Assembly: GCA_020137815.1 (NCBI GenBank)
Contig: CM035355.1
Coordinates: 1,178,001 to 1,242,000, forward strand
Length of the DNA stretch: 64,000 nt
Direction: 5' to 3'
Origin: Hormiphora californensis
Lineage: Eukaryota > Animalia > Ctenophora
Position numbers and translations under genes: made by a program. Below are positions 6,003-51,906 of the stretch, piece by piece. How positions within the stretch are numbered: position 1 is the first letter of the stretch; each line of letters begins with the position of its first letter. The notes under the pieces were generated by a model that ran no database searches, was not told the DNA's origin, and saw only the letters and a program-made list of their open reading frames with translations.

Positions 6003-7867
6003 ATATCACACCCTCCTGATAAGACACTGACTGTCATCATATCCTTGATATATCAGTTGTTTAAATTATTAATAACACATACTGGCTGTGTTTTCCAGTC
6101 CAGAGACAAAACGTGCAAATTTGGGATTTGAGAAACTAAGCTTTTTTGAGATGACAAGATAGTGAGAAGAGAGTGTTATATTAAAAAGCAATTTGAGTGT
6201 TTTTCGTGTAGATTACTTAGGTTATGTAACTCAGTTAAAATCATGTTCGCGTCCCTTTATCAACAAACTGACTTCTGTGAGTTTCATTTCGGTCAGAACT
6301 GTTCTGGCTTTAAAAAAGTCCATGATATCTCACAGACTTTCAGTAAAAGGGATCGTGCATCATATTATTTGTCCCCGGCTTAGAGTATGTTATAGAATTT
6401 AGTGTTTGCCGACTACTGTTATAGATCTAACTACCAGACTACAGGTCTAACTAGTTGTTTTTCGAGAGAAGATTTTCAGTATAATTATCATATCTTGCTG
6501 ATTTTTACATTTGGTACGGATTTATAAGTGTCAGGTGTAGCTGAACAGTGCTATTAGTGTACTGTGAGGAACGGGCTTGTTTGTATGGATTTTGAAAGTT
6601 GGGATTCAGAGAAACCGGTTTTCTCTTAGCATGTGCGGTATTTTCTTGGGGGAAATTCTAGCTGAGCTAGCGGGATCTATTTTTTGAAAAGCTACAACTA
6701 CAAACATCTCATATTGATATTGTTCTGTATTTTAGTTTTTGCCAAAAACACATTTTGTCACTAAGTATAAACAAGTTTTTGACATTATAAACACGTTGAT
6801 TTAAAGAAATCGAGTTTTCTTTTCCGATAGACAGACGTGTTTCTGAATAAATGATAAAAAGTTTATTTAATTCTATATTTTCACCACGTATTATTATGAA
6901 CCTACTTGACACAAGTTTTACGTCTCATGCCGATTAATGTCAGGCTGTGCCTCTCCGGTGTGCGGCGTAAAACATTTCAAACTATGACGTTATCACTTTT
7001 TTTGTTGTTATCAATTATAATAATCAATACTTTTTCAATTTTTGTTTGATTTTTGTGCCCCTGTTAAAAGCTGTTTTACGCTTTGGTTTAAAATGCTGTC
7101 TGTGTGACATGTTTCATTTCCCACATTGTTCAGTGTGGAACGTTAAACATGGTTTGTGGGTAATCTCGTTATGTGTGTGAAGCTGTAGATGTATCGCACA
7201 TTTAAAGACCTAGGACCCTGTTTTAAGATGCGGTTACAATAAATTATTGTTTTGTTTACTCCAATGATTGTAAAAATAAGAGTTGTCTTTATCTCGTCAA
7301 GTACCTATCTCCGATTAGTTTTTGGTCCCAATGTAGGCACCCGTTTTACAAACTGAGTATCTTTAATTCAAAACTGATTTTCGGTTGACATTCTTTAAGG
7401 AAACTGGTGCCTACATTTTTGATGAAAAGGTCAAAATATTGTATATCGTTAAAACTAAGATCTGAGAAACAATGTTCATATGTTACTCTTTCCATTTGTA
7501 ATTATATTTGTTTTTCTCGCAATAAAAGAGTTTTTACACTTTCAACCCCCTATTCCACTCCTAACGATTGGACTCGAGTCTATGCCGTTACACTGGCATG
7601 CCAGATACCAGGGTAAGGCAGCCCGGGACCTGGCATGCCAGCTTTTCTTCACTTCGAGATGCGGAACAAGAATAGTCGCATGTCCGTTAGACGCGAAAAC
7701 AAAAACATCAAAACAGGAATCTTCGCGCGAAAAAACAAGCCGCGCAAAAACGCTCCGCGCGAAAAGGCCAGAGCGCGCCGCGCGTAGCCGTGATTTCAAG
7801 AACTAAATTTCCAACATAAAAGTCAAAACTAAATTTTTTAGTTTTGAAACAAAAAAAGTTTTGAAAA

Positions 7868-8777
7868 TAGGGATCCCTAAAAAAGTTCAGTATTTACACA
7901 GAGTTTACACCAGTTAAGCCATTTCGGTTTTTCCCACGGTAGCGTGGGAAGAAAAATTTCGAAATCTGCGCTGTGATTGGCTTAAATTTTCTATCGTCAG
8001 AAATTTCAGCCAATCACAGCGCACGTTAACGTAATCGAGCTTCAACAAACGGTTATCAACCACCAGAAGCAACAACTCAGTACAGTGACAGCATCGGTGC
8101 AGAAGGTGAAAGCCTACTCTACTGTGCTAGCACAGAATTGTGCTGCAACCTCCCCCAAAGTGGGAAAACCACTACCAGTGAATCATCCTACTCCCGTCCA
8201 ACAGCCCGGAAGAGAGAAGAACATGGTTGTGTTTTGTCTCCCAGAAACAACCGATAGAGTAGCTAAAACTACTTTAGACGAACTTTTTGAGGAATTAAAT
8301 GAGAAACCGAAAGTGACTACGATGAAACGCATCGGCGAAAGAAATGAGAAGCGCCCTAGACCGCTCTTAGTATCCCTGGAGAAGAGAGCGACTCTCCTCG
8401 CACTCCTCAGAAAGGCACGAAACCTCAAAGACTCCAAACAGTTTTCGGCTGTTTATCTCTCTCCGGATCTTACGCCCTCTGAACTGAAAGAGCAAAAAGC
8501 TCTAAGGTCCACTTTGAAGCGGATACGATCAGAAGATCCTGACGGCTGCTACTTCATCCGTAATAATCTTATCCAAGTGGGATAGTTCCCCACTAACTCA
8601 CCGTTATCAGAGAACCGTGCTAGGAGCAGGCAGTCTACTGCAGTCCCTTTCAAATTAAGGAAAACGAGTTGTCTGTATACAAACTGTGTCAGTGCGGGAT
8701 ATAAACTGTCATTTTTATTATTATTATTATTATGGTGTAAACGCTGTGTAAATACTGAACTTTTTTAGGGATCCCTA
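7868..8777. mobile_element. Non-autonomous TIR element (TAGGGATCCCTA family) containing a LINE fragment
   Basis: About 45-bp TIRs: TAGGGATCCCTAAAAAAGTTCAGTATTTACACAGAGTTTACACCA at 7868 and its near-perfect reverse complement ending at 8777. The same TIR pair occurs at 22797-23342. Confidence 0.8.
8085..8733 (+). mobile_element. CR1/L2-clade LINE remnant: ORF1 C-terminal half, start of the ORF2 endonuclease, (TTA)n tail
   Basis: ORF 8085-8585 has REKNMVVFCLPE...RIG...RPRPLLV...LLRKARNLK...VYLSPDLTP, typical of CR1-type ORF1. Downstream SCLYTNCVSAGYK resembles the APE N-terminus (CLYTNARS). A (TTA)n run follows. Confidence 0.7.
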
Positions 8778-9026
8778 TTGAAACAATTTTAGGAGTTGGG
8801 CATCCGGTTCCTAGATTTTTGTATGGTCAAAATGATTACTATAGGCTATGAGGTGACTTTATCACATCACCGCTTCAGGCTTGTGACCAATGGTTCATGC
8901 AATACTCCTGGGGGTTGCCCCTCTCATACCCAACCTTTAGGGTGTGTCAGCGGTTACTTGTCTCAGGTCGCCCCTACCCTTGGATACACTGGGACCTATA
9001 TCTAATCTTAAGCTTTCCCTAGTCCA

Positions 9027-12000
9027 ATGCTTCGGTTTGCGGCTCGGCGGCTGCCGTCATGGAGTAAGGCGTACCAACAAACTGCTTCCATAACAACTTT
9101 CAAAACAACAACCCTCACCAGCTCACTGAGCTCTGGAAAGCAGGACACTCTTCCCATTATTGAGGATTTCTCACGTCGTCACATTGGACCAAATGATGGT
9201 GAGGTGGAAGCAATGTTGAAAGTAGTGGGGGCTGAGAGTCTTGATGAACTTTCTCGGTTGGCCATACCTGCAAACATCCTGGATGACTCACCCCTGAAAG
9301 TGAACCCACCAACCAGTGAGTTGGAACTCGCTAGAAGGGTTACCAAGCTCGCAAAGATGAACAAAACCTTTAGAAATTACATTGGAATGGGTTACTATGA
9401 TTCGAAAGTGCCGCCACCCATTGTGAGGAATATTCTGGAAAATCCCGGCTGGTGAGTCAAACAGAAAATTATGTATTTAATATTGTTTTTATTCAAACAT
9501 GTGCTATCCAGTCTGTTCATGATTGGAATTTGAATGCTAAACTCTTTCCTCTGCCAGGTATACTAGTTACACGCCTTATCAAGCTGAGATTGCCCAAGGT
9601 CGAATGGAGAGTCTTCTAAACTACCAAACTATGATCACCGATATGACAGGATTACCAGTGGCCAATGCCAGTCTTCTGGATGAAGCTACAGCTGCTGCCG
9701 AGGCCATGGCCCTAGCGTTCCGAAATCAAAAACGAAACAAAGATCCCGTGTTCTTCATGGATAACGCTATATTTCCACAGACAAAGGCTGTTGTTATGAC
9801 TCGAGCAAAAAACCTTGGAGTCAGGGTAAGATAAAACACTGTGCTGAGTTTTGGTGAAATCTTTCATAAATTATAAACTTTCAACACACTTCATCAAAAT
9901 CAGGAAACTCCTCCCCAAATTAATATAAGTTTCAGTTTCTAGTTTGCTACAATGTCATTATCCAATGTGTTCCTAGGAGTGAAGTAGTAGAAGGGCCCTC
10001 CTTTCATCCTGATCAGTGCCATGCTAGTGCCCACTTGGGGTTTGGAAGCAGGCATCGGTTGTGGGGCCATGTCGAAGTTTCGGGCAAGGAGGGACAGCGT
10101 CAGCTTCATACTGATCATTGCAATGTGTTTGCCAAGACAGGCCCGTGGTCCAGCTAGGAATGGAATGTAGGTGAGGGTGTCGACAGTTTGGAATTCCGTT
10201 TCGGAACCGTTCTGGATCGAATTGTCGGGGATTTGGCCAGTACTTCTCATTTCGATGAAGGCAGTATTGACTCCATTGAATTTGGCATGCCTTGGGAAGA
10301 TGATATCCGGATAGTTTGGTATCCTGTAACACCCATCTGGTCCCCTTCAGAAGAGTTGGGGTTAGTCGTAATGACTCTAAGATGACCATTTCGGTGTACT
10401 TCAAGTTATCCATGCTCTTTAAATCGGTGACTGGATTTTCTCGAAGTTCCTCCATCATTTTCTCGAAAATCTCCTTGTTGTTAATCATATAAGTGAAGAG
10501 AGAGCTGAGCTGTTTGGACATGTTGTCTATGACCATGTACACAGTCATGATGTCATCAACAACCTCCTCATTTGTCAGTCCTGCAGCGTCGTTAGCGGTT
10601 ACCAACCAAGCGAGCATGTCATCATCAGGATTTGTGTCCCAGCCGGCCATTTCCTTTCTCTTTTCATCGACCATTTTACGACAAATTGTTCTCAGGTTCA
10701 CGATCATTTCCAAACTGTCTTTCATCTCCTTGTTCATCGCCCGTTCTCCATACATTTGGAAGACACTCTTGAACTGAACTGGAATCACATCCAGTATAAT
10801 ATTCACTCGTTTCCCAATTTCCTCTGGTTGGTCGACCCCCATTGGACAGGATATTCCCATGACTGCCGGCAGCGCCGAAAATACCATTGTCATCATCTGG
10901 TGTATGTCCATTGCTGCCCCATTTTGTACCCTTGGCTTGATCTTGGTCTCCAGCAGCCGTCCCATCAAAGGTGCGATGTGGGGGAAAAGGTTTTGCATGT
11001 TTTGTTTGGCGAAGAATCCACTAACTACTTTCCTCTTTATTGCCCACGACTGGCCGTTACCTGTTAGTATACTCTTGTAACCGGTGATTGTCTGCCCGAA
11101 TAGAGCTCGGTTGGGAAGATGATCAACTTTCTTCATGTTTACAACCTCGCTGAAGATAAACTTCAGGGCTTCTGGATCAATCGTGAAGATGACGGGCCGG
11201 GTTCGAATTCTAAACTGGAAGGTCTCCCCATATTCTTCCACCCATTTAGAAAAGCATTCCAGAAAAGCGTTTTGCCTCCCATAGTTTTTCAAAGTAGGAC
11301 CATTGCCCTGGAAGAAGGAGCTGTATGGGGGTGGTCCGGGGAAATGGTCAAACTGTCGAGCGTAGAGCCACTTTTTGGAGACATCGTATGCGTAATAGAA
11401 GGAGACGGCGAGAATGATAGAAAACAAAAGAAACATAGTTCAACCGACAACAACTGAATGAGTTTCTGCTGCTGGTTATCCTGTCCGCCCACACACCGTG
11501 TAGGTTTACAGATGTGTAGGCGTGTTGTGTGCGTGTATCAATGGTTGTGGCAAGTGCAACCTCACTACGTGCCTTAACCAGCAGATATTACTGCAACCAA
11601 GTGAAACCTAACTGCAACTTCAGTAAGCTATTATTATTAGTTAGCAATGGAAAGAGTTCTCCCCCCCCCCCCCAAAATGAGGGAGTTAAAAAACAATCAC
11701 CAAAAAAGATCGTTTGCTTTCTAAATTCTAACACCATCTAGAAACTGTGAACTGAGACTTAGCATGCTAGGTTTATACCCAGTCGATACTTGTAGGGTCC
11801 CGTGCCGCTTTTTCAACCAAACTTCCCCAGGTTATTATTGGTGATTACTCTACATTCGACTATGCCACGCCTGGTCTCTGTGGCGTTCTGTTCCAGTATC
11901 CTAACAGTGATGGGAAAGTTATTGATTACAGCGAATACATCAAGGCAGCTCATGCCAACAAAGTGAGTCATTAGTTCTTAATGCATGTGTCCAACTGATT

Positions 12001-12586: not shown

Positions 12587-15500
12587 GCTCCATTTCTCTT
12601 TGTAACCCCTATCTAACCAGGCCGGATTATTGGAGTAACCCGAGATGCAGATAACGGGTTGGCGTTCAGGCTCACCCTGCAGACTAGGGAGCAACACATT
12701 AAGAGGAACAAGGCTACTAGTAACATCTGTACAGCACAGGTAGGAACAAGGCTACTAGTAACATCTGTACAGCACAGGTATGAACAGGGCTACTAGTAAC
12801 ATCTGTACAACACAGGTAGGAACAAGGCTACTAGTAACATCTGTACAGCACAGGTAGGAACAAGGCTACTAGTAACATCTGTACAGCACAGGTAGGAACA
12901 GGGCTACTACTTTTAGTTATATGACAATGTTATATCCATTCAGCAAAACCCCTGGTGTGAATACAATTATTATTGATTTACCCTCTCTTCCAGGCTCTGT
13001 TGGCTAACATGGCGGCTATGTATGCTGTGTATCACGGTGCTGATGGACTCCGCTCCATTGCTGAGAAGGTTCATTTCTCTACTTGTATTGTGGCTGAAGG
13101 TAAGGAGATTCCACCAACTCATTCCACTATGTTACTTGTACCAACCAAGTGTTATTGTGTTGGAGACACACGCCTGAGTTCCGTGTACATTATTTGAGTT
13201 CTGTTTCCTCCCTCTCTCTCTCTCTCTCTCTGTTAGATCGATAGAGAAACGTTTAGCTAGTGTACCAGCTACCAATAACAGAGTACACAGCTATCTCTCC
13301 TTCCTTTTCTAGTTCTCCATCTCTCTACAGTCTACACACACTACTGCTTGTGAAATATGTCTCCCCTTAGTAGAAGAGTGTTATTTCAGGAACTATAAAC
13401 AAGACAAACTTGTGTTCAATAAACATCGCTGGCTGACAATAATGTTCAATAATTTTCCCACGACAGGTGCCAGAAGGGCTGGCCATCACATTGAGGATGG
13501 TGCCTTCTTCGACACTCTGAAGATCAAAATCCGATCTGAACAGGCATTCCAAGATGCCCTCGTTAACGCAGAGATAAGGCAGATTAATATCAGGATATAC
13601 GATGGAGAAGCTAACACAGTAAGTACTCCATCCTCTCTCACCTACCTGTAAAAGTTAGAACAAGTCTAGTTTGGGATCAACAGCAAGTTCAACTTGTAGA
13701 GTTCTTTGAGGGGCAGTATGACACTATTTGTTACTACCACCCCTAGATTGGAATTTCCCTGGATGAGACAGTAACTTCTGAGGATCTTGATGATCTGTTG
13801 TTTGTTCTCGGAGCACCATCCAGTGTAAGAAATTATTTTGTTTCTAGATTCCACATCCATTTAATAATCCCATGTACTACATAATATACTGTTTTTTGAG
13901 ACACAGTTAACTAATTATATGTAGTAAGTTATACAATTAACTAATTAATGTAATTGCCAGTCTAGTTGGAGTGGTACAGATGGTTCGGTAAGGTGTTGTG
14001 CTAACGTGAACTGTGAAGCTTTTTGAAACTACAACAGCTACATTAAACGCTTGTATTGCTACTTTTAATTTATCCAGCAATTTCAGGCACTTGTCCAGCT
14101 AATGTTATTTTAATAGCTCTAGACTTTGTCTAACAAGCTATAAGCTTTATATAGTTAGATGGAGAGTGAGAACAATATCACATGCTACCTAACACACGTC
14201 TGTTCGTTACTAACGGCTAAGCATTGTGCTAGGAACTCTTGGTTAACTCTGCACTCTGCACTAAGTACTTGTCGGAGAATTTGAAAGGTTTACCAAGACG
14301 TGGTAACTAGAGACTACCATGTATAATAAAGGGTGGGTCGGGCGAACTGATCCTAAACTGGCCAACACATGGTAACGAGAGCGGTGGGCTACCGTCTTGG
14401 CGTGCACTGTCACCGGTACATGTCAAATGGAAAGGGGGGTGGACTATAGCCGCTGCATCTCGTTTCTGCCAACTAGGGTTTCATGATATAAGATCACGAT
14501 CAATCTGCTAATAGTGTGAAGCAATATGTGCCTAATCGAGATGAATCTAGCCGAGATCCCTGCTGTATGGCTTGTAAACAGGGTATCGGAGCTAGAGGGT
14601 TCCGTACAGTTGTAACACTAGTTGGCAGAAACGAGATGCAGCGGCTATAGTCCACCCCCCTTTCCATTTGACATGTACCGGTGACAGTGCACGCCAAGAC
14701 GGTAGCCCACCGCTCTCGTTACCATGTGTTGGCCAGTTTAGGATCAGTTCGCCCGACCCACCCTTTATATATCAGTTGTTTAATCGCACTGTACGGGAGA
14801 GAACTGTGTTAAAGACCTGAATGGAGCCTACTGACTAACACATGAGAAGGTTGTATCGACTCTTGTTAGAATACAATGTTTGTTTCTATCAGGGTTTCAT
14901 GATATAAGATCACGATCAATCTGCTAATAGTGTGAAGCAATATGTGCCTAATCGAGATGAATCTAGCCGAGATCCCTGCTGTATGGCTTGTAAACAGGGT
15001 ATCGGAGCTGGAGGGTTCCGTACAGTTGTAACACTAGTTGGCAGAAACGAGATGCAGCGGCTATAGTCCACCCCCCTTTCCATTTGACATGTACCGGTGA
15101 CAGTGCACGCCAAGACGGTAGCCCACCGCTCTCGTTACCATGTGTTGGCCAGTTTAGGATCAGTTCGCCCGACCCACCCTTTATATATCAGTTGTTTAAT
15201 CGCACTGTACGGGAGAGAACTGTGTTAAAGACCTGAATGGAGCCTACTGACTAACACATGAGAAGGTTGTATCGACTCTTGTTAGAATACAATGTTTGTT
15301 TCTATCAGGGTTTCATGATATAAGATCACGATCAATCTGCTAATAGTGTGAAGCAATATGTGCCTAATCGAGATGAATCTAGCCGAGATCCCTGCTGTAT
15401 GGCTTGTAAACAGGGTATCGGAGCTGGAGGGTTCCGTACAGTTGTAACACTAGTTGGCAGAAACGAGATGCAGCGGCTATAGTCCACCCCCCTTTCCATT

Positions 15501-16377
15501 TACCATGTATAATCCTTGTCTCATATAAGACCGTCCTCTCCGCACCGGGCCGAAGGCCCGGTGCGGCTACGTGAGGCCGCGTAGTTGCGCGATGTACAGT
15601 CAGTGTCTGACAAGTATAATCCACATATTTTTCACGGCGTGGGTCGTACAACTTATCATGATCTCCTAATATCTCCTAATCATTATTCAAAGTTAGCTTG
15701 ATGGCTATACAGTGCTCAATCTTTGCAGAGAAAAACCAAACACAAAAACACAGAAAATTCGTTTTCTTTGTTTTTTGTCTCCTAATATTCATGTCAATGT
15801 TTTTAGACGAATCTGTGGCAACAGTTCAAACCTCGTGATGGTGGTATTTTGAGGACAAAGTTCGAGAGGACATCTGAGTATCTAACCCACCCAACATTCA
15901 AGAAATACCACAGTGAACACCAGCTAACCAGGTAGAGGAAAAGAAAAGAGGGAGAGAGAAAGAGAGGAGAAGGGAAACGAGGGTAGACAAAACCATCTTT
16001 CGAGAGAAAAAGAAAAGAGAAAAAAGGGCTCAAATAATACTGTAAAGAGGTTGAACAAGGACGGGAAAGTATAGCACGCTCTGTAGAGAAGGTACACACC
16101 CCGTAGCTAAGACCCAGCCCAAGATATTACGCGGGCATGGAAAATAAAAGCTAAGCAGACCCCAGGAGAGAGAGAGCCTAGAGCCGACAGCTAGCGAAGA
16201 GAGCGATAGACTGCGCAAAAAGAGACCGTTTATAGAGAGAGAGAAGCGCAGAGACGAGAAGAGAAGGATGAAAGACTATATATAAGAATGAGATCGAGAG
16301 ATCTTGTCTATAGAGTCGAAGATCGTAGCGATACGGCGGATCTGAAGTCTTGAAGCTTCTTCTTAGTCCTCATGACG

Positions 16378-21044: not shown

Positions 21045-21489
21045 TTTTGCATGTGCTTGGCTAACAAATTGCCCACCTACTCGCCTTAGCACACGTAGCC
21101 AAGTCTCTTGAAAGCGATGGTAGCGGGTCTATGTATTATGCCGATGAACTTTGGTGTGGACTTCCTGGAATTTGATGGTCTTAACGACCTAGAAATGACA
21201 TGCTGTGGAGGGGAGAGACTCCGAACAAGTTCATTCCCTCTGGCCCTCAATAGTCCTGTGTTGTGTGACTTGGTGGGTGTTCAAAAAATGAAGGAACTCG
21301 ATGTGGAGGACTTCTCCCGATCCTCAGTTCTATGTTTCATCCAATCCTGCTACTCCGGATCTACAGCTGTCAGCCGTGAAAACTTTCGAGAGGTGAACAA
21401 GCTGAGTGCAGTGTTCAAGGTGGAATGGATGATAAAAGAGTGTCTTGAGTTTTACACTGACCTCTGCTCCGAGTTGAGCTCCCTTGAAA
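21045..21489 (+). pseudogene. 5' partial duplicate of the downstream BTB gene, truncated at transposon sequence
   Basis: Nearly identical to about 23841-24285 up to GAGCTCCCTTGAAA, then switches to unrelated repeat sequence. Confidence 0.9.
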
Positions 21490-21543
21490 CGGGGGCCGCA
21501 GGATTGTTTTGCCCGCGTCACCCCACCCAATGTTAAGAATCAA

Positions 21544-22796: not shown

Positions 22797-23342
22797 TAGG
22801 GATCCCTAAAGGAAAACCCAAGCAACAATAGCCCTCACTTGGGTTTTGTGAAATTTCACACGGTCATTGCTCCACCCCCTGATGAGATAGAGACTTGAAA
22901 TTTTGTAGTGAGGTAGAACTCGACATGATCTATCCAACTACAAAATATCAAGTCTCTATCTCATCAGGGGGTGGAGCAATGATCGTGGGAAATTTCACAA
23001 AACCCAAGTGAGGGCTATTGTTGCTTGGGTTTTCCTTTAAAAAAGTTCAGTATTTACACAGAGTTTAAAGTCCATTTTTTTCAACTGTTCACCCCCCAAA
23101 GTCGTGCGCGGAATTGTTTTGCGCGTTTATCACATGTGGCTTTTTTCAAGAAAATATTGGATTGTGTGCTGCAAAATTGACAAAATTGAGCGCTGCGGCG
23201 AAAAAAGTTTCCGAAAACGCTGCAAATCGAGTGCGAAAGACGCAGTCGTTACACCCAGAGCGGCGCGGGCGCTCTGGGTGTAACGACTGAGTAAAGACTG
23301 TGTAAACTCTGTGTAAATACTGAACTTTTTTAGGGATCCCTA
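22797..23342. mobile_element. Second TAGGGATCCCTA-family TIR element, left TIR split by a nested palindromic MITE
   Basis: The left TIR resumes at 23041 (AAAAGTTCAGTATTTACACAGAG). The right TIR ends ...GAACTTTTTTAGGGATCCCTA at 23342. Internal 20-bp-stem hairpin at about 23243-23289. Confidence 0.85.
22810..23036. mobile_element. 227-bp palindromic MITE (AGG...CCT ends, Kolobok-like)
   Basis: About 100-bp inverted arms; flanks CTAA and TTAA; the empty site is visible at 7875-7890. Confidence 0.88.
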
Positions 23343-23592: not shown

Positions 23593-23912
23593 TTAGAGCC
23601 GTTTAAGTGCTGGGCACTGCAGGGTTGGCATGCGCAAGTGTGCGCGTTTTCCACGGCTTCTAGGGCCTGTAGCATAGGCCAAACTGCAGGGTATAGTACT
23701 CTTTTAGCAGCTTGTACCTGTAAAAAGGCCTCCAAACACCCAGAATTTTTGGTTGAGTGGTCTGGCGGTTAGAGCCGTATAAGTGCAGGGTACTCTTTTA
23801 GCAGCTTGTACCTGTAAAAAGGCCTCCAAACACCCAGAATTTTTGGCATGTGCTGGCAAATAAATTGCCCGTATACTCGCCTTAGCACACGTAGCCAAGT
23901 CTCTTGAAAACG

Positions 23913-25460
23913 ATGGTAGCGGGTCTATGTATTGTTCCGATGAACTTTGGTGTGAACTTCCTGGAATTTGATGGTCTTAATGACCTAGAAATGACATGCT
24001 GTGGAGGGGAGAGACTCCGAACAAGTTCATTCCCTCTGGCCCTCAATAGTCCTGTGTTATGTGACTTAGTGGGTGTTCAAAAAATGAAGGAACTCGATGT
24101 GGAGGACTTCTCCCGATCCTCAGTTCTCTGTTTCATCCAATCCTGCTACTCCGGATCTACAGCTGTCAGCCGTGAAAACTTTCGAGAGGTGAACAAACTG
24201 AGTGCAGTGTTCAAGGTGGAATGGATGATAAAAGAGTGTCTTGAGTTTTACACTGACCTCTGCTCCGAGTTGAGCTCCCTTGAAAATGTTCGTTTTCTGT
24301 TCGAGGAAGCGGCATACATACTGAGGGAGAGGAACAACAAGGACCTTCAAGATGCACTGAACAATGGACTGCTGAATTTCCCAGATCTCCGGTTATCCCT
24401 TGTGCAGGATTTCATGTCTCGTGATCCCAACAAACAGGAGTTGGCGTGTACTGACCTGTGCCTCTCCCTCGCTGGAAGTGCTATCCCAGCTCTCTACAGT
24501 GGACTGATTAAAATGATATCAGGCAGAACCCCTCCTGTACAACTTACAGTTGCTGAAAAACGGTTCCTCCCCCAGACGCTGACGGTGTGCTTCCGGTCTG
24601 ACTCTGATGTTTATCTTCAACTTGTGGACACCCTGCAGACAACATTATGCAAGGAGGATATTGAGGTTCTACTAAAACCTCTTTGTAATGTTTTTCATAA
24701 CTTAGCAGAGCTCTGTGATGAAGATCAGAAGGTAGTTTATCCGATAGAACTGCCGGCTTTGAAGGACTGTAAAACCTTGTTGGATGCTATTCGAATCTTT
24801 GATCGGGAACCACGAATTCAATCTTGGATCCAGTTTGCGGATTGTGTCGGTTACTATTGTTTTACCAATCGAGGAATGTGCGAGGATTCGGAAGTTTTGG
24901 AGGCTTTAAACGTATCACTAGAAAAGCGGTATAAAAACTATCCCTACAGTACGTGCAATGTAACTGGGTTAGGATTGGAACGGAGATTGAGAGATTTTCC
25001 AATGTTGCTGGACGTCTTCAATAGATATGAACAAGGGAGAGAAGCTGGTCACCTGCGTTTAGAGTTCGGGAAACGCCTTAAACCTCCGTGTAAACTTTTG
25101 AAAACTGCATTCCTTGATATTCATGATAGTCCTAGTTTTTGTGAGCACAACCCCCAACCCACACACAAGAGGTGTAAGGTTGCAGTGAATTTCTTTCTTG
25201 TTGTAAGAGATCAGGATAGTTTTCCAACCTTTACTATCGAGTTGGAGAAAGATAGCTCAATTCTTGATGCTCAATCAGATACCCACTTCCACCAAGAACC
25301 CGATATTTTGAAAACCATTGTCGTACAAGAGCATCGCAATGGTGTATGTATGAATTTTACAAGTAATCTAAATAAAGAACCATGCCATAACTTCTGCTAT
25401 TATCTAGCAGAATCTGCTATATTCACAATACGCTGGCCCTTGATTTCCTCGCCCGTGTGA
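23913..25460 (+). CDS. Intronless BTB/POZ-domain protein with an unrecognised C-terminal region
   Basis: Open frame of about 515 codons with the BTB pattern DLEMTC...LALNSPVL...ELDVEDFS...FIQSCYSG...NFREVNKLSAVFKVEWMIKEC. First ATG at 23913 (alternative 23940). Confidence 0.8.
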   Translation: MVAGLCIVPMNFGVNFLEFDGLNDLEMTCCGGERLRTSSFPLALNSPVLCDLVGVQKMKELDVEDFSRSSVLCFIQSCYSGSTAVSRENFREVNKLSAVFKVEWMIKECLEFYTDLCSELSSLENVRFLFEEAAYILRERNNKDLQDALNNGLLNFPDLRLSLVQDFMSRDPNKQELACTDLCLSLAGSAIPALYSGLIKMISGRTPPVQLTVAEKRFLPQTLTVCFRSDSDVYLQLVDTLQTTLCKEDIEVLLKPLCNVFHNLAELCDEDQKVVYPIELPALKDCKTLLDAIRIFDREPRIQSWIQFADCVGYYCFTNRGMCEDSEVLEALNVSLEKRYKNYPYSTCNVTGLGLERRLRDFPMLLDVFNRYEQGREAGHLRLEFGKRLKPPCKLLKTAFLDIHDSPSFCEHNPQPTHKRCKVAVNFFLVVRDQDSFPTFTIELEKDSSILDAQSDTHFHQEPDILKTIVVQEHRNGVCMNFTSNLNKEPCHNFCYYLAESAIFTIRWPLISSPV

Positions 25461-28578: not shown

Positions 28579-31500
28579 ATGTCATCAGAGATAGCAGTCC
28601 TCACCCCCGCTGATACGGAGAAGATGGACCAAACAGAGACCACGAGAAAGAGGCCCAGGGAGGGAAAGAAGAAGAAGAAGGATGGGAGGAAGGTGGCGAA
28701 GAAGATGTCTTGGACAAATAAACAGAGAGCCCTGGTATTTGCAGCACGTGGAATTACATTCCATGCTCGACACCTGATGAATGATCTGAGGGTGTTGATG
28801 CCCCACTCAAAAACAGGTAACCATGGTAGCCATGGTAACGGGGGGGGGGGGGTGTATGGTTCTGTATGTTTGACGAGCGTTGTCATGCTTGAATGGGTTT
28901 GTACATGTATCGATAAATTCATGACTTTTATCTAAAACTGCTGTTATATTTTAAAACTTCTCGAATCATGTGACGCCAGCGCTAAAAAGAAGTGAAATGG
29001 CGTTGAATGTGACCGATACAAAAAATGCTTGGTCTCATTTCGCCCACTGGCCTGCTTCCTACGTTAAATTGTTCTACTGCTTTCGCTGCCCTTTAGAAAC
29101 AAACAGTTTTTTCCATCATGTCAGGAGAAAACCTAATTTCAAATTATGTACTCGATTGGTTCGACTCAAGTTACGGCAAACATTGTTATATATGGTTCCA
29201 CAGGTGACCTGTAATTGTGTAGACTGTAGTGCTCTTTATCTTTTTCAAAATGTGCAAAAAATTAGGGTTGTCCGTCCTCTCGTTCTCTGGCCCGTGCTTC
29301 AATTTATTAAGGTTTCTGACTATTTTAGAAGTAGTAGAGTCGATAAGCAAACTCACCTCCTCTGATTTCAATGAAACTTCTCTCATGCTAAAATATGGTA
29401 ATGGGGGTACAAATACCGCTTATTTTGAGTCCGGAAAACTTTTGGTTCGTTAATTATCGCTAATTGAAAAACGCCAAAATGGCCTAAAATTGCCCTTAAC
29501 ATGGTTTTGAAATTTTGGAGTTGGAACTCCAGACTTTGTAGAGATGTCCGCTAGGATGCCAAAATGCACCAAAAGTGGGCTCAGGCCCAAATTCATCCGA
29601 ATTTTTGCGTAAGACCGGATGGACTGAATTTTGGTCACGTGACTTCGGCTAACTTCTGAACCATTGAAGTAAGGGAGGTTTATAGGGGGCTTAATCGATG
29701 CAGAAAGAGATAAAAATGACACGTAATGACCCTATTTTTCATCTCCGACGCACAGGAAAGGCACAAATGGCAAAACAAAATTGACGCCATCTAGTCTCCC
29801 GCTCTTTTTTTCAAAACTCTAACTTCTGAACCGTTGGAGTAAGGAATATTTATAGGGGGCTTAAAAGATGCAGAAAAGAAAAAAAATGAGACGAAATGAC
29901 CTTCTTTTTCATCTCCGACGTGCATGAAAGGCACAAATAGCAAAAAACTGATTTTGGAGCCAATTCACGTGACCAAAATTCAGTCCATCCGGTCTTATGC
30001 AAAAATTCGGATGAATTTGGGCCTGAGCCCACTTTTGGTGCATTTTGGCATCCTAGCGGACATCTCTACAAAGTCTGGAGTTCCAACTCCAAAATTTCAA
30101 AACCATGTTAAGGGCAATTTTAGGCCATTTTGGCGTTTTTCAATTAGCGATAATTAACGAACCAAAAGTTTTCCGGACTCAAAATAAGCGGTATTTGTAC
30201 CCCCATTACCATATTTTAGCATGAGAGAAGTTTCATTGAAATCAGAGGAGGTGAGTTTGCTTATCGACTCTACTAAAGGGCGTGCAGGAATAGTCCAGGT
30301 ATCCGGGTTTCCACCCTGTTTAAGAATTTCACGGTTCTGCGTTGGTTAGTCATGCACGTGTCAGCCTCAATGTGACACGATATTATTGGGAATAGTGAGA
30401 GGGAGAGAGAGAGGGAGCTGAGAGAGTGAGAATAATACCGTGGATGCATTTATATTATGATAGACACATGTAATAGTGAAGCCAATTTAGTCTGAATATA
30501 TGAACATTGTTGTAACTTTTTTCTTTTCGTACAATTTGCCTCTAGAATAATCCATTGCATTTACTTTAGTAGATCAGCTGTGAATGTTTAAAAAATCAGA
30601 CTTTCTTATCTTCGCCCTTTGTCGAGAGCCTCTTTCTCTTTTTATCCCTCTCTCTAAATATATCTCCTATCTTTCTCTCTTTCCTTCCCTCTTTCTACCA
30701 CTGATGACTGCACCGTGCAATTCGATTCCTGATAAGAATGCTCGCCCACCAAGTCGCACTCATTTTGAATCACACTCAATCCTTCCTACGCTGTAGTCAC
30801 TACTTTGCTGTTTTCTTTTGTCTGATGGACCGATTTAAACGTTATGCTGCCGCTGGTGTGCTCCTCTCAGCACTATATGTCGAAATGGCCGCCAGGTATT
30901 TACAAACCTCTCAGATTCTGTCATTGACCTCTCGTTACCAATATATCATGTTTCCTAAATCAGACCCTCTACACCGAAAGAAGCAACAAATTGAAATTCT
31001 ACAACTCCTACAGGTTCGGTATACCCATTGTTATGATTGGCGGTATGTTAAAACCTGACGACTGTACTCAAGGAACACCACTCTGCTGGTCAGAGTCCAC
31101 CAAGGCGAACGTCATTGGATCTTTCTTCTATGGCCTAGCAGGACAATTCTTTGTGGTGTGTCTTGTAAAGTGGTTTGACAAGTTTACAGTCTGTTTCCGG
31201 GTATGGCTAGTTCTCTGTATCATCTCCCAGTTCCTGTACCCCTCTCTAGCGGTTACCTCACCCGTTATCCTAATGGTTATCCAGGTTATCCGGGGCTTTG
31301 GAACTGGTGTCAGCGTCGCCTATCACTTGGAATTTCTGAACCGATGGCTCCCAAAATGCGAACAAAACACTTACATCTCTATAGTGGGGATGGTTAATTT
31401 CCTTGGTAACGGTACTGCCGGGCTGCTGGCTAGTTGGATTAATGATACGTATGGGTGGAAGTTCTACTTCTACTCCGGTGGGGTCATGTTTGTGGTGGTG

Positions 31501-33812: not shown

Positions 33813-33841
33813 TGTTACCATGGTAACATGGGGCGCGTTAA

Positions 33842-35232
33842 GGGTACGCTAACCAAAATTTTTTTTCGAGTGCAGGGAAATCTCTCACCGTAGGGTTGTA
33901 GGCCATGCCAAGGAGACCTCAAATATGCAATTTGAGCTCTCAAGTCGAATTCATATTTTTGCTACAGCTGCTTGAAAAATGAACTGTAAATACGTTTTTG
34001 GCATCTCAAAAAAAATTTTTTAAAGATAGAAGCATGAAAATTTGGGGATTTGAAGAGGACATGAAGGGGAATAACCACAAAAAATTTTTTTGCAATCCGA
34101 GCTGATTTCCGGTCCCGAGATGGATTTCTTTTTTTCCACTTTAACGCCCTATTTGGCAAAGTTCCGAAAACATGTGAAAGCTGTAAATTGGTGAAAAGTT
34201 TCGTCTAACGATTATCTAAGTGGCCATAAATTTTGGGCGTGTCCTTATTTGAGATAAGCTGTACAGAGTTTTTTTTGTGAAAGCCGTCATTTCAGAAATA
34301 AATAAATTGCCTGTATCTCAAAAACGGCTGATCGTAGAGACCTGAGACTATGCTTAAACGATTCAGAAGGTCCGATTTTGGGTGGGTCTTCTGAGAGACA
34401 TTTTGCTCCTACTTCAACCGTTTTTGCTGTAATTGCGAAAAACAAAAAACCATCTTCGCCATCGTGGATTTTTTGTGATTTTGTTTTTGGTGATTATAGG
34501 GACCCATATGGACCAAATAGTGAAGGAATTAGCTTGTTACACATTTTTCCATAGTTTCGGTCCTTTCTTAGCCACAATTCCCTAATTACAGGATATTGGA
34601 GTTTAGCTTTTGCCCTTTCCATAGAATTTGTTTTTCGCAATTACAGCAAAAAACGGTTGCAGTAGGAGCAAAATGTCTCTCAGAAGACCCCCCCAAAATC
34701 GGACCTTCTGAATCGTTTAAGCATAGTCTCAGGTCTCTACGATCAGCCGTTTTTGAGATACAGGCAATTTATTTATTTCTGAAATGACGGCTTTCACAAA
34801 AAAAACTCTGTACAGCTTATCTCAAATAAGGACACGCCCAAAATTTATGGCCACTTAGATAATCGTTAGACGAAACTTTTCACCAATTTACAGCTTTCAC
34901 ATGTTTTCGGAACTTTGCCAAATAGGGCGTTAAAGTGGAAAAAAAGAAATCCATCTCAGGACCGGAAATCAGCTCGGATTGCAAAAAAATTTTTTGTGGT
35001 TATTCCCCTTCATGTCCTCTTCAAATCCCCAAATTTTCATGCTTCTATCTTTAAAAAATTTTTTTTGAGATGCCAAAAACGTATTTACAGTTCATTTTTC
35101 AAGCAGCTGTAGCAAAAATATGAATTCGACTTGAGAGCTCAAATTGCATATTTGAGGTCTCCTTGGCATGGCCTACAACCCTACGGTGAGAGATTTCCCT
35201 GCACTCGAAAAAAAATTTTGGTTAGCGTACCC
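33842..35232. mobile_element. 1.39-kb foldback DNA transposon with TTAA flanks and GG...CC ends (Kolobok-like, non-autonomous)
   Basis: TTAA|GGGTACGCTAACC...GGTTAGCGTACCC|TTAA with about 600-bp arms. Related internally to 50545-51847. Confidence 0.92.
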
Positions 35233-35877
35233 TTAACATGGTAACAAGGAATGACCTCACCCAAACCGTGTGACGACTTCTGGAAATACGTGACCTGGTT
35301 ATTCTGTGCGTGTCGGGGAAATAATGCTTTTAAATGGACTACCACTCAGCCTGTTTGTTTTATCACGTGACTGGCAACTTTTAATGGGTTCAACTAATTT
35401 ATTACCAATTTCCATCTCTTTTAACGAATATTATGAGTTTCATTGTTTCTTTCATTGTTACCATGGCAACTGTGCATTTCCTCAATTTATATCTCTCTCC
35501 CCCTCCTCTCTTTTATCAATTACACGGTTTTCTTTTTGGCTTCCGGCCAGTTCGTGATTTGTGTTTTCTCTATCCACGTCTACCTCTCTTCAAACATCGT
35601 ACATGTGTCGCTGCGGTTCGGATGATTTTCTGACTTAATTACTTCTTTCAGTCCGGTTTTTAGAAATCTTCCACGCCCTTGTATTAGCCTTCTTGTCCCT
35701 ATCACAGCTGCGGCTACATAACAGTCACCGGTATATCAAGTATTTCTCTAATTTTTTTGCCACCACCCGTTTTTACTTGCGGTACTTCTACTACCATTTC
35801 TACTACCATTTCTCTTCATTCTTCCATCTATAATAGGCGATCTAAAATTGGCCTACTGCATCAATTGTAATTACTGT

Positions 35878-35999
<122 letters not shown>

Positions 36000-37217
36000 G
36001 GAACTGTTGATATTTTGTGCTTGTACTGCTACCGATTGAAGATGAAATAGAGAGAAACTAACATTAATTGAGAGAGTGTGTTTGTGTCTGTAACTGTACC
36101 AAAAACTTAACACGTACTGTCACGAGAGCATTGCACTAAATATGGCCAGTGTTTTTAATTGTTTTGTGTTGGTTGAAGGGTCTAGATACAGTACTATCAG
36201 CTCTCTGTTTTTAAACCTCTTTGAAGAACCACTTCTAGATCTGTGCTGCAGTTGTCGCCCTGCATTTAGCTACCGGCCATAGAGACTTTAAATTTAGATC
36301 AAAGTGTATCGGGAGTGTATCGGGAGTGTATCCCAGAAGCCTATTTTCGCCTTCCATTTTCTCTTGCCAGTTGCCATGGTAGAAACTCCACAACATCACA
36401 CATTATCCATAACAAGCTCATTCTGTTTAGCGGCATTCTATATAGAGGAGGGTGCTGTAACATGATGTTAAAGACAGTGTTGTAAAGTTTGATCTTCATC
36501 TACGACCTACGTCTATATACCGAAGTAGGTAAGATACCATTGTATTTCAATTATATTTGTTTTTCTCCGACCCCGATCATATTTGTTGAGTCCAGGTCAC
36601 AACAAGATCGCACTTTGACCAATCCAAAACGGTCTGACTATATCTTAGACAGTCTTCCGGGCCTTTCCTAATGGTGATATGAGGTCACATTATAACTACC
36701 CATGAAATAGTAGCCTGCACGCCCCCCCCCCCTCAACAACACCCGCCCTCGTTTTCACAACCATTAGTTAATATGGTTTACCCAGCCATTTAGTGCCCTA
36801 TCCGGTTAGACGTAGTTTATCGTATCCACTGTCTCCCACCCTCTTTCTCCCCACCTCTATCTCTCTTCCTCCTTTTCTCCCTTGGTATTTCTTCCTCGGG
36901 ATACATGTACCATTTAATTTGAGGGGAAGGAAGAAAGATAGCTCGGGTACGGAGGGCCAGGGACAAATAAGGGCACAGAGAGGGAGAGAAAGAGAGAGAG
37001 AGGGAGTGAGGGAGATACCCGGATGTTACCCCTTTAACTGCTCCCCCTCGTTAGTTCATAATCGCTCTGTACGGTCCCCTGTTGTAGATGGTTAGTGGTT
37101 ACACAAAAGTACAAGGGGTTATATTATTTAGCTATTCCCTCTCCCAGCTTCTCTCTATATCTCTCTCTCACTCGTCATTTGTTCGATCATCAAGGCACAA
37201 TATGTTGTGGCACTTAA

Positions 37218-38227
37218 GGCCAGAGGGGGGGGTCGACCGATTTTTGACCCCTATTTTGGGCCATTTTTGGGGTTACCATCATGTGATAGCGCTTGGCACA
37301 CCGGACCAGATGGATATGACAGAATCGATTTTGCGCGGACGGTCTGGGAGAAAAGTGGGGTTAACTTTTGGCCTGAAATCAATGTAAACCCCAATATTTT
37401 AGGACTAGTAGGGTTTGGGACATCCAATCAAGTGTCAAACGCTTCGTCTTATCAAGAGTGATCACTCTGCTAAGTTTTACACCATTAGTCCAACTGGTCT
37501 TTGAATTATTTGGGGTTTACAAAATCTGGAAAAATCGACATTATGGCTCCCATATACACCCCATTTTTTCACATGGTTAACCACTTTCTGAGAAAACGGC
37601 TAGGATCTAGACCTTGTCATTTGGCACACCTGTTCTACAGACCAAGGAGCATGAAACATATGTAGCGATTTTTGATTAAGGCCCTCAATCAAAAATTATG
37701 GGGGTTTACAAATGTTTGGTCAGGGAAAATATTATGTAAACCCCCATAATTTTTGAATGAGGGCCTTAATCAAAAATCGCTACATATGTTTCGTGCTCCT
37801 TGGTCTGTAGAACAAGTGTGCCAAACGACAAGGTCTAGATCCTAGCCGTTTTCTCAGAAAGTGGTTAACCATGTGAAAAAATGGGGTGTATATGGGAGCC
37901 ATAATGTCGATTTTTCCAGATTTTGTAAACCCCAAATAATTCAAAGACCAGTTGGACTAATGTTGTAAAACTTAGCAGAGTGATCCCTCTTGATAAGACG
38001 AAGCGTTTGACACTTGATTGGATGTCCCAAACCCTACCAGTCCTAAAATAATGGGGTTTACATTGATTTCAGGCCAAAAGTTAACCCCACTTTTCTCCCA
38101 GACCGTTCGCGCAAAATCGATTCTGTCATATCCATCTGGTCCGGTGTGCCAAGCGCTATCACATGATGGTAACCCCAAAAATGGCCCAAAATAGGGGTCA
38201 AAAATCGGTCGACCCCCCCCTCTGGCC
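37218..38227. mobile_element. 1.01-kb almost fully palindromic element with TTAA flanks and GG...CC ends
   Basis: TTAA|GGCCAGAGGGGGGG...CCCCCCCTCTGGCC|TTAA; arms about 490 bp, spacer about 25 bp near 37712-37735. Confidence 0.92.
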
Positions 38228-39426
38228 TTAATTATCAGTTTAGTAGCCCCTCTCGTCCCCGTTTAGTACCATTTATCGTAACTGATGAATAGGCCGAATC
38301 GTTTAAAACTTCAGTGTTCACCCCCCTCTCATCCCCCATATCTGTTGAGCTTTTGTTCCGAATTGCCAATAGAGTTTTTGTTGGTCACATAAACTCTGCA
38401 CCCTTGCCTCATGTAGCACAGTGTGATGCAGTATATACCACACCAGATGGTCACACAGTGCTGCTGCTGTTGGAGTTTGAATAAAGGCGGGCTTTTAGTG
38501 ACTCACTCAAACCTTCTTTGGTTGTTCTAGCGGTTTTTTGAAGTTATTATGTTTCTAAATTATCTCCCGTTAGTTTTTCCCCGATAGTAACCTCTGTCCT
38601 ATTCTTAGTTGTGTTTCACTGCCGTGTATTGTATCTGAAGTGAAATAGAAGATTAGCTCCCTATTTAATTGGGTTTATCCTTGATTGGCAATTCAATTGA
38701 TTGCCGTTAATTGGAAGGGGGGGGTTCCAATTAGGAAGTATCCAGGAAGAGGTTATTAACTAAAGTGCCCACAAATTGTTCTCATAGATACCCTCTATAA
38801 CATGTCTGGTCCTCTGTCTCCCCTAACTGACACACCAGTCACCGATACCGCTCTTATTTCTGTATTGAAATAACCTGTTTTTAGATATATTTCCCTTTTA
38901 TTTCCCTGTTTTACTATCCCCGGAACTGAGCTGTTATTCCAACCCTTATCCTAGTCTCAGTGGGACTAATCTCTGCTATCCGTGATGTGAATTTTGTAAG
39001 GGGGGAGGAGTACCATGATGATGTGAACATGACGTATACACCGATCACTGTGCACTTCTCTGGGAGGGAGGGGCAGCTATACAATGTATAGTTTGTAGCT
39101 ATTGTTTCGCCATTTTATACAAATGAGAGCATACAATGCTACATTATTCCTCCTATATTCCCTTTTCCTCCTTCTAGGGCAAAGTAATAAACCCCTTCAC
39201 ATGTTGTTGTGTATTTCTCTCTAATGCAACACCCCTGCATGGTGTGGTTTAAACTGTGAGTCGGTTTATTTGGGATCTCCCTGAATTTTTGATGAGGTGT
39301 CATAGTGAATTGTGGGCAGGTCGGACTGCCCGACAACGTTAGCCCTATTGATATTGTCACTAGGTTCTGCAAAAAATGGGCTGTACAAATTAGCAGATAT
39401 TCGCCCTAAGAAACGTGCTAAACAGC

Positions 39427-50496: not shown

Positions 50497-50544
50497 AGAG
50501 AGATGCTAGGGAAAGGAGGAACACACTGCAAATGAAGGGATTAA

Positions 50545-51847: not shown

Positions 51848-51906
51848 TTAAATAGTAGGAAGTAGTTGGGGTGAAACAAAACTTGTTTATCCTGTGAGCA
51901 TGGGAG

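What the first reader, a model, noticed from the sequence alone, without database searches (positions are those of the whole stretch)
14315..15513. Retrozyme/Penelope-like insertion of a multimeric 416-nt structured RNA with no recognisable ribozyme
Seen: about 2.5 head-to-tail 416-bp units in which I found only one substitution, starting and ending at different phases, preceded by a 149-bp inverted piece of the same unit, all within a 13-bp TSD. There is no poly(A), TIR or credible ORF. The unit is strongly self-complementary (TCTAGCCGA/TCGGAGCTAGA, CCCTG/CAGGG, CCGTACAGT/ACTGTACGG, AACGAG..AGCGG/CCGCTCTCGTT, TGTGTTA/TAACACA), and the single A-to-G variant keeps pairing as G-U. At the 3' junction the unit would continue T-GA-CATGTA and the target reads T-AC-CATGTA, suggesting template-target pairing. 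Established: tandem multimers with a TSD are the footprint of retrozymes copied from circular RNA, and 5' inversion is a twin-priming or Penelope-like signature. I found no CUGANGA...GAAA hammerhead core and no clear HDV or twister motif on either strand. Inference: a very recent insertion of a circular-RNA-derived retroelement that may use a divergent or new self-cleaving motif, or another circularisation route.
Basis: partly seen in the sequence, partly recalled or inferred. Interest (0 to 1): 0.85.

Follow-up and report, generated by a model that had tools for sequence, protein, structure and literature searches.

The report
Ribozyme-less Penelope-type repeat in comb jelly
This is a real, apparently recent insertion of an abundant 416-base non-coding repeat into a gene intron of a comb jelly, laid down in the tandem-plus-inverted pattern of Penelope-like jumping genes and likely copied by their enzyme, but it folds no better than shuffled sequence and shows no recognisable self-cutting RNA.

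Summary
The anatomy is confirmed. A 13-bp TSD (14315-27/15501-13) encloses a 149-bp inverted piece and 2.47 head-to-tail 416-bp units with one substitution. The host is a ctenophore and the site is an intron of the glycine decarboxylase gene. The unit is a high-copy family with no fixed end among the loose ends shown. 'Strongly structured' is not confirmed: fold z-scores are -0.1 to -1.2, and family variants break predicted pairs more often than they keep them. No hammerhead in any block order, HDV or twister motif beats shuffles, and Rfam is blank. Tandem plus inverted 5' copy plus TSD without a hammerhead is the published pattern of Naiad/Chlamys Penelope-like elements and their non-autonomous derivatives such as MRC1. 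A hand-scored word chain links the unit weakly to the 3' end of a Beroe Naiad. The single A/G difference is a family polymorphism, which favours a linear mixed multimer over one RNA circle as template. Best reading: a non-autonomous Penelope-like element (0.62). A degenerate twister-like layout is a weak, post hoc lead.

The parts
14315..14327 (+). Left copy of the 13-bp target-site duplication (last 2 nt shared with the inverted arm)
14328..14476 (-). Inverted, 5'-truncated copy: reverse complement of unit 14618-14766; inferred cDNA primed from the top-strand 3' end at the unit's CCCTTT|ATATAT site
   Evidence: exact match; priming is inference
14475..14890 (+). Unit copy 1 (416 bp, A at 14594); begins at the inversion junction with a 2-nt microhomology
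14891..15306 (+). Unit copy 2 (416 bp, 46% GC, G at 15010); TATA-like TATATA at about 15182-15188, readable both ways
15307..15501 (+). Partial copy 3 (195 bp); its end is the inferred bottom-strand priming site, with 7 of 10 matches to the target
15501..15513 (+). Right copy of the TSD (first nt shared with the unit); overlaps the left 9-bp TSD of the neighbouring MITE
15016..15190 (+). Least variable part of the unit (shown in copy 2); holds the four collinear word matches (15023, 15077, 15150, 15178) to the 3' end of the published Naiad_Bfor consensus
   Evidence: variants; by-eye comparison; null; weak lead
15005..15119 (+). Degenerate twister-like layout (GA-GGG 15011, UAA-CACU 15029, UC 15079, stem 15093/15119, loop CCAA-GA) with a 43-nt and an 11-nt insertion; not supported as a ribozyme
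   Evidence: post hoc
13825..15806 (+). Host intron (GT..AG) of the glycine decarboxylase gene; the element's inferred RNA strand is the gene's sense strand
   Evidence: splice junction 13824>15807 in run X4; Pfam GDC-P and GcvP2_C on exons on either side

Best explanation
The 1.2-kb stretch is one insertion of a high-copy, non-coding 416-bp ctenophore repeat, likely recent and likely a non-autonomous Penelope-like element (Naiad-type, hammerhead-less, comparable to MRC1) copied by a Penelope-like enzyme supplied from elsewhere in the genome. Proposed steps: (1, inferred) a genomic tandem array is read through on the + strand into a linear multimer whose units differ slightly. (2, inferred; the TSD is shown) the partner's endonuclease makes staggered nicks 13 nt apart in an AT-rich intron site, leaving two 3' overhangs. 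(3, inferred) each overhang primes reverse transcription inside the RNA, at two sites 99 nt apart in unit phase, helped by imperfect pairing (7 of 10 matches shown at the right end). (4, inferred; the geometry is shown) both new strands have the unit's minus-strand sequence, one 1027 nt and one 149 nt long, and they are joined head-to-head through a 2-nt microhomology. Gap filling gives the TSD. No self-cleavage or RNA circle is required.
For: Geometry: read outward from both target 3' ends the new DNA is the unit's minus strand, so both ends copy one template strand. A purified Penelope-like protein cleaves and extends both DNA strands, starts inside the RNA and does not need hammerhead cleavage (PMC11167929). 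Direct repeats plus an adjacent inverted copy inside an 8-10-bp TSD, with a two-way TATA, is the typical Penelope layout (PMC3846280). Naiads show partial tandems and an inverted 5'-truncated copy, lack canonical hammerheads, and occur in two other ctenophores (PMC8557442). Non-autonomous Chlamys elements make multi-copy head-to-tail insertions. Family: summed contig depth over the unit is 3e4-4e5 against about 170-190 on single-copy flank in X1 (the tool warns this is not a copy number). No loose end inside the unit had more than 3 contigs among the 18 rows shown of 256, while the MITE next door had 35 and 24 contigs at its two fixed ends. Youth: one mismatch between copies and a perfect TSD; the 15311 T allele carried by all three copies has zero depth in X1, X2 and X4 and about 3.5 of 1375 in X5. 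Linear mixed template: 15426 G>A is 9% of X1 depth and 32% of X5 depth. Naiad link: four collinear ungapped matches (hand-scored 18, 18, 16, 18 at +2/-3) to the 3' 275 nt of Naiad_Bfor; such a chain arose in 0 of 600 null comparisons, and a tighter three-match chain in 4 of 600.
Against: No autonomous partner was found: no genome is held; the 8 of 33 long window ORFs that were scanned gave no RT or GIY-YIG hit; a degenerate Naiad RT motif found nothing in viral or prokaryote collections. The two priming sites are 99 nt apart, not the 30-40-nt tail described for these elements. The target is not a (TA)n microsatellite, the Naiad preference. In the in vitro system initiation was not homologous to the target, whereas here there is partial homology. 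The Beroe chain was found by eye, its thresholds were set after seeing it, two Naiads and two strands were inspected, and the Mnemiopsis Naiad shares four or five scattered 8-9-mers with the unit at about the chance rate. Only one full insertion could be read; 238 of 256 loose-end rows were not shown, so a family held mostly in a few long arrays is not excluded.
Confidence: 0.62

Rival explanations
1. Retrozyme-like element with an unrecognised ribozyme: a multimer transcript self-cleaves to 416-nt monomers, these are circularised, and a Penelope-like RT rolls round the circle to give the 2.47-mer.
For: Unit size and GC fit animal retrozymes (150-450 bp, GC under 50%, TSD over 4 bp; PMC7229834), which are proposed Penelope derivatives (10.64898/2026.07.22.740005). 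The unit is held by 6 runs on record as RNA among 20 holders. X2 holds the unit but not the more abundant MITE, and X4 gives a closed 445-nt contig (a tandem gives the same). A two-part twister-like descriptor matched the unit once and 4 of 3000 shuffles.
Against: No hammerhead at up to 2 core mismatches in types I and III or better than shuffles in any of six block orders; no HDV match; Rfam blank at E<=10. The general twister descriptor's best hit has 3 deviations, reached by 16 of 200 shuffles. The descriptor was written round the hit, needs two insertions, and its helices have probability 0.02 or less. The fold is no better than shuffles and variants do not covary. Copies differ at a polymorphic site. 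Depth is low in X4.
Confidence: 0.14
2. A satellite-like array is transcribed and occasionally retroposed in trans by a LINE protein with twin priming; it is not a dedicated parasite of Penelope-like elements.
For: A 5' inversion inside a TSD is the twin-priming signature (PMC2837659, search listing; details recalled). On one linear RNA the arms fit with a 122-nt deletion at the inversion. A LINE ORF1-like frame lies at 7986-8585 (resemblance recalled; no Pfam hit).
Against: No poly(A) or short-repeat tail at either primed end and no A-rich 3' signal on the + strand; both ends are internal to the unit; hundred-fold depth with short pieces embedded in unrelated flanks (35 nt at 15130-15164 in X4; a 100-nt diverged piece in a 706-nt X1 contig) suggests a dispersed family.
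Confidence: 0.13
3. DNA-level capture: a break with 13-nt overhangs was repaired by copying a genomic array or an extrachromosomal DNA circle of the unit from both ends, guided by microhomology, with no RNA step.
Against: A clean 13-bp duplication without loss of target, and a 1-kb templated tract, are unusual for such repair (recalled). Both ends copying the same strand is expected for RNA and only one of two options for DNA.
Confidence: 0.08
4. Assembly artefact (collapsed or chimeric repeat).
For: No listed contig spans the stretch, and the window's 15309/15311 alleles are rare or absent in the four runs laid.
Against: A perfect TSD that also rebuilds the neighbouring MITE's own 9-bp TSD; the inverted arm contains no flank; the head-to-tail junction is bridged in X4.
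Confidence: 0.03

Closest known systems
Non-autonomous Chlamys Penelope-like elements, e.g. MRC1 of Chlamydomonas reinhardtii, and Naiad insertions (Craig et al. 2021, PMC8557442; PMC9940879)
   Same: Non-coding, head-to-tail multi-copy insertion, inverted 5'-truncated copy at the 5' end, no canonical hammerhead, recent activity; Naiads are listed for Beroe forskalii and Mnemiopsis leidyi.
   Different: Ctenophore host; not in a microsatellite; primed ends 99 nt apart rather than a 30-40-nt tail; shared 3' end with a same-genome autonomous family not shown.
Canonical EN+ Penelope insertions, e.g. Pen2a_Av of Adineta vaga (PMC3846280) and PAc of Anolis (PMC11167929)
   Same: Direct repeats plus adjacent inverted copy within a TSD of about 10 bp; two-way TATA; both strands extended from internal RNA sites.
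   Different: No ORF between the repeats, no hammerhead, and partial target-template homology at the primed ends.
Animal non-LTR retrozymes (Cervera and de la Pena 2020, PMC7229834; Li, Clavereau and Pollet 2026, 10.64898/2026.07.22.740005)
   Same: Tandem unit of a few hundred bases, GC under 50%, TSD longer than 4 bp, non-coding, probable Penelope dependence.
   Different: No type I hammerhead (the defining feature), not highly self-paired, no sign of abundant RNA in the spliced run laid.
L1-type twin-primed 5'-inverted insertions (PMC2837659, search listing only)
   Same: Inversion with microhomology inside a TSD of 7-20 bp (range recalled).
   Different: No poly(A); both primed ends are internal; the insert is a tandem multimer.

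Membership tests
Animal non-LTR retrozyme | Type I hammerhead in each repeat | tested here: not met
   (0 hits at up to 2 core mismatches); descriptors written from recall
Animal non-LTR retrozyme | Tandem 150-450-bp units, GC under 50%, TSD longer than 4 bp | tested here: met
   416 bp, 46% GC, 13-bp TSD (criteria)
Animal non-LTR retrozyme | Highly self-paired monomer | tested here: not met
   z -0.1 to -1.2; no covariation among 20 variants
Animal non-LTR retrozyme | Abundant linear and circular RNA | tested here: inconclusive
   depth 3.7 in spliced run X4, 6.5-9.7 in X2; contigs cannot show level or circularity
Non-autonomous Penelope-like element (Naiad/Chlamys type) | Partial tandem or multi-copy head-to-tail arrangement | tested here: met
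   criterion
Non-autonomous Penelope-like element (Naiad/Chlamys type) | Inverted 5'-truncated copy next to the 5' end, inside a variable-length TSD | tested here: met
   criterion
Non-autonomous Penelope-like element (Naiad/Chlamys type) | No coding capacity and no canonical hammerhead | tested here: met
Non-autonomous Penelope-like element (Naiad/Chlamys type) | Optional 30-40-bp tail at one end | tested here: not met
   the inverted arm extends 99 nt beyond the right end's phase; the tail is described as optional
Non-autonomous Penelope-like element (Naiad/Chlamys type) | 3' end shared with an autonomous family of the same genome | not testable with these tools
   no genome held; cross-genus by-eye chain to Naiad_Bfor is a lead only
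Naiad | Insertion bias for (TA)n microsatellites | tested here: not met
   target is AT-rich but not a microsatellite; one site only, and no preference is listed for the two ctenophore Naiads
L1-mobilised twin-primed insertion | 3' poly(A) tail | tested here: not met
tRNA-derived SINE | tRNA head or Pol III A and B boxes | tested here: not met
   ARAGORN 0 genes; recalled box patterns 0 hits
Twister ribozyme | UAA-P2-T2, P4 loop U-NNN-AA-NN and P2'-GA-T1' blocks without large insertions | tested here: not met
   best hit 3 deviations, 16 of 200 shuffles equal; Rfam blank; layout with two insertions is post hoc; consensus recalled
Non-circularly permuted hammerhead (types SGC, CSG, GCS; PMC10085705) | Blocks C, G and S with stems I-III in any order | tested here: not met
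   best hits have 2 core mismatches and 8-9 pairs; most of 150 shuffles do as well or better
Viroid-like or HDV-like circular RNA | Rod-like or strongly stable circular fold with ribozymes | tested here: not met

The most novel reading that the evidence does not exclude
The unit is a ctenophore Naiad 3' end turned into an independent tandem retroelement that carries a rewired twister-derived ribozyme (two extra segments set into the twister frame, predicted cut at 15029/15030), so that it is processed to 416-nt monomers or circles: an animal retrozyme that runs on a twister-type rather than a hammerhead ribozyme, in the earliest-branching animal lineage.
Probability: 0.08. Interest if true: 0.85.

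Novelty: new member of a known kind. Interest (0 to 1): 0.36.

Why it matters
If the best reading holds, it extends hammerhead-less non-autonomous Penelope-like elements, described from green algae, to ctenophores. It also gives a clean, young footprint (TSD, two primed ends, partial target pairing, one polymorphic site) for asking whether these multimers come from linear read-through RNA or circles, and what fixes the internal priming sites. I found no report of such an element in ctenophores in the searches made (open-licence library only). It does not by itself reveal a new ribozyme or a new route to circular RNA. The larger payoff lies in the unlikely twister reading and in the side observation that two published mollusc Naiad ends look like twister ribozymes.

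Tried and rejected
No whole genome is held, so copies, TSDs and partners could not be listed. Rfam: 2 weak hits outside the insertion at E<=10 for 14000-15800, 0 for 14700-15350, 0 at gathering for the window. Exact-word scans for other loci: viral contigs 0, 3, 0, 0; metagenome contigs 0, 6; genome contigs 0. All 9 loci returned match only 18-21 nt and are chance (L001-L003 look like RNA-phage genomes). A degenerate Naiad RT motif found 0 in viral and 0 in genome contigs. No other copy lies in the window beyond a 22-nt match. Only 4 of the 20 holder runs were laid, on one unit plus right flank; the left junction and the empty allele were not examined. In X2 two contigs meet within 1 nt in the C6 run at 15073/15489, as a monomer end would give, but one study, low depth and a homopolymer make this no evidence, and X4 bridges the site. 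A P3-order twister reading (loop at 14973) has 5 deviations, matched by 114 of 200 shuffles. The energy printed used a mis-set pair and is void; the corrected value is -2.4 against an MFE of -7.1 kcal/mol. Three CUGAnGA..GAAA strings elsewhere in the window: two (22879, 23523) are arms of nested inverted repeats, and one (62670) was not examined. The bacterial promoter scan is irrelevant to this host. Earlier findings: none by sequence or place. Supplement word searches: 0 hits for 7 unit words of 10-13 nt and for a 9-mer; scattered chance hits for others.
Full report
Observation. The anatomy is as described. A 13-bp duplication (14315-14327, 15501-15513), found nowhere else in the window, encloses a 149-bp inverted piece (14328-14476) and 1027 bp of tandem repeat (14475-15501), that is 2.47 units of 416 bp with one mismatch, A at 14594 against G at 15010 and 15426. 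The inverted piece is the exact reverse complement of unit 14618-14766, with 2 nt shared at each of its ends. There is no tail, no terminal inverted repeat and no frame over 80 codons; the 6 unit frames sent to Pfam gave no hit.

Setting. A P450 frame at 10024-11439 is 99% identical over 74% of its length to a protein labelled Pleurobrachia bachei, with 60% relatives clustering with Bolinopsis and Mnemiopsis proteins, so the host is a ctenophore of or near that species. The insertion lies in intron 13825-15806 of the glycine decarboxylase gene: Pfam marks exons on both sides, and a contig of run X4 joins 13824 to 15807. The target overlaps the left 9-bp duplication of a 98-bp MITE-like element at 15516-15613, which fits insertion next to an older element.

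Structure. The claim of strong self-complementarity fails its control. Linear z-scores are -0.11 and -1.17, circular ones -0.27 and -1.05, and the best of 84 local windows is -2.2. Three of five named helices are probable and two are not. Among 20 variants listed within the unit, 7 break, 4 keep and 9 lie outside predicted + strand pairs. Seventeen of the 20 fall in one 120-nt arc (about 15209-15327; 0 of 20000 random draws reach this), so about 290 nt are more constrained, which suggests a functional part without showing a fold.

Ribozymes. Rfam gave nothing in the unit at E<=10. My descriptors (written from recall) found no type I or III hammerhead at up to 2 core mismatches and no HDV-like fold. 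Earlier scan notes on scrambled hammerheads in Naiads led me to test all six block orders of Eckert et al. (PMC10085705; abstract and parts 3-4 of 8 read); the unit does no better than shuffles. A general twister descriptor gave a best hit with 3 deviations, equalled by 16 of 200 shuffles.

Family. Twenty of 24 listed runs in 14 studies hold the unit's words, 6 of them on record as RNA, with a best share of 0.75. Four runs were laid on one unit and the right flank. In X1 the summed depth over the unit is 3e4-4e5 against about 170-190 on single-copy flank, so the family is at least a hundred-fold amplified; the tool warns that this is no copy number. Among the 18 of 256 loose-end rows shown, none inside the unit has more than 3 contigs, while the MITE's two fixed ends have 35 and 24. 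That favours variable ends but does not exclude a family held in long arrays. The T at 15311, present in all three copies here, has no depth in X1, X2 or X4 and about 3.5 of 1375 in X5, so this insertion is probably absent from X1; contigs drop rare variants, so this is an inference. In X4, shown to be spliced RNA, the unit forms a closed 445-nt contig at depth 3.7, like intron depth and far below the exon (about 1600). A tandem and a circle give the same contig, and the library type is not on record.

Mechanism. Read outward from the two target 3' ends, the new DNA is in both cases the unit's minus strand, so both ends copied the + strand, at phases 15085 and 15184, 99 nt apart. The right end matches the template continuation at 7 of 10 nt (4 of 416 phases do as well), though a 9-of-10 site exists and was not used; the left end matches 7 of 10 only in a shifted register. 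This is the published Penelope-like layout: direct repeats and an adjacent inverted copy within an 8-10-bp TSD, with a two-way TATA (PMC3846280, passages). A purified Penelope-like protein nicks and extends both strands, initiates inside the RNA, and inserts without hammerhead cleavage (PMC11167929, parts 1-2 of 4); against my reading, its start sites were not homologous to the target and lay a short tail apart. Naiads have the same layout without canonical hammerheads and are listed for two ctenophores, and non-autonomous Chlamys elements such as MRC1 make multi-copy head-to-tail insertions (PMC8557442, passages and supplement; PMC9940879, passages; PMC9977147, passages). The single difference between copies is a family polymorphism (G>A at 15426: 9% of depth in X1, 32% in X5). 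One circle copied 2.5 times would give identical copies, and a fresh mutation would hit a listed variant about 2% of the time (20 of 1248 possible changes; the table is cut). A linear multimer of mixed units, or a jump between two RNAs, is therefore more likely; later gene conversion is also possible.

Link to Naiads. Reading the supplement (part 8 of 59), the last 275 nt of Naiad_Bfor share four collinear ungapped matches with the unit's + strand, at 15023, 15077, 15150 and 15178, the last being where the inverted arm was primed. I scored them by hand at 18, 18, 16 and 18 (+2/-3). In 600 null comparisons (300 random, 300 window segments) a four-match chain with shifts up to 60 arose 0 times and a three-match chain with shifts up to 15 arose 4 times. 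The thresholds were set after seeing the match, two Naiads and two strands were inspected, and Naiad_Mley shares scattered 8-9-mers at about the chance rate, so this is a lead. No autonomous partner could be sought in the host.

Twister lead. Two mollusc Naiad ends shown read, by eye, as type-P5 twister layouts with paired changes in P2, P3 and P5 (consensus recalled, not run through a model). The unit has the same blocks in the same order at 15005-15119, but with a 43-nt and an 11-nt insertion. A descriptor built round this layout matches the unit once and 4 of 3000 shuffles, but it is post hoc and its helices have probability 0.02 or less in the predicted ensemble. I give the working-ribozyme reading 0.08.

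Comparison and novelty. It works like a non-autonomous Penelope-like element; membership is unproven because the shared 3' end with a same-genome partner could not be tested. It is not a retrozyme by definition, since the type I hammerhead is absent (PMC7229834, part 1 of 6 and passages; 10.64898/2026.07.22.740005, parts 1-3 of 5, whose supplements were not seen; its 35 species include no ctenophore). Searches for retrozyme plus ctenophore, Pleurobrachia plus Penelope, ctenophore plus transposable elements plus Penelope, Naiad plus non-autonomous, and twister plus Penelope (listings, plus passages of PMC6765202) showed no report of this element or of twisters in Naiads; subscription papers and Repbase were not searched. 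Other windows of this scan report similar ribozyme-free tandem elements in other animals, which are unchecked notes and not support. Verdict: a new member of a known kind, interest 0.36.

Noticed in passing
PMC8557442 supplement File S5: 3' ends of Naiad_Mmer and of the record before it: Both mollusc Naiad ends read by eye as type-P5 twister ribozyme layouts: UAA, GA, two pseudoknot pairings, an 8-nt P4 loop, with paired changes in P2, P3 and P5; P1 is poor. The passages read describe hammerhead searches only, and I saw no report of twisters in Naiads. Not run through a model.
   Followed up: partly
window 15516-15613: 98-bp MITE-like element with 5-bp terminal inverted repeats, a 9-bp TSD and a GC-rich hairpin; very high copy with fixed ends in runs X1, X4, X5.
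   Followed up: partly
window 15672-15777: A 106-bp segment is skipped in contigs of X1 and X4 and has raised depth in X1 and X5: probably another small polymorphic insertion in the same intron.
   Followed up: no
window 10024-11439 (-): A long single-frame cytochrome P450 gene nested on the opposite strand between exons of the glycine decarboxylase gene.
   Followed up: partly
window 33837-35237, 37214-38231, 50541-51851, 29332-30275: Four fold-back elements with 98-100% complementary arms of 314-617 bp; three begin and end with TTAA, as piggyBac-type elements do (recalled), and two share about 150 bp at 89%.
   Followed up: no
window 7855-8790: A 199-codon frame resembling LINE ORF1 (recalled; no Pfam hit) lies between 58-nt inverted arms whose sequence recurs at 23038-23067 and 23303-23342: possibly a DNA transposon carrying a captured LINE fragment.
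   Followed up: no
window 6043-6064: 21 of 22 nt match the unit's TATA-rich site (15178-15199; E 0.001 in the window), the site where the inverted arm begins; a tiny remnant or chance.
   Followed up: partly
run X2 on window 15073/15489: The two RNA contigs meet within one base in the C6 run, 12 nt upstream of the insertion's right end, and the run lacks the more abundant MITE; low depth and one study only.
   Followed up: no
window 21058-21536 and 23854-25460: Partial duplication (96%) of a BTB-domain gene, with nested inverted repeats between the copies.
   Followed up: no
window 54077-56257: G-rich 38-bp minisatellite of about 56 copies with strong GC skew.
   Followed up: no
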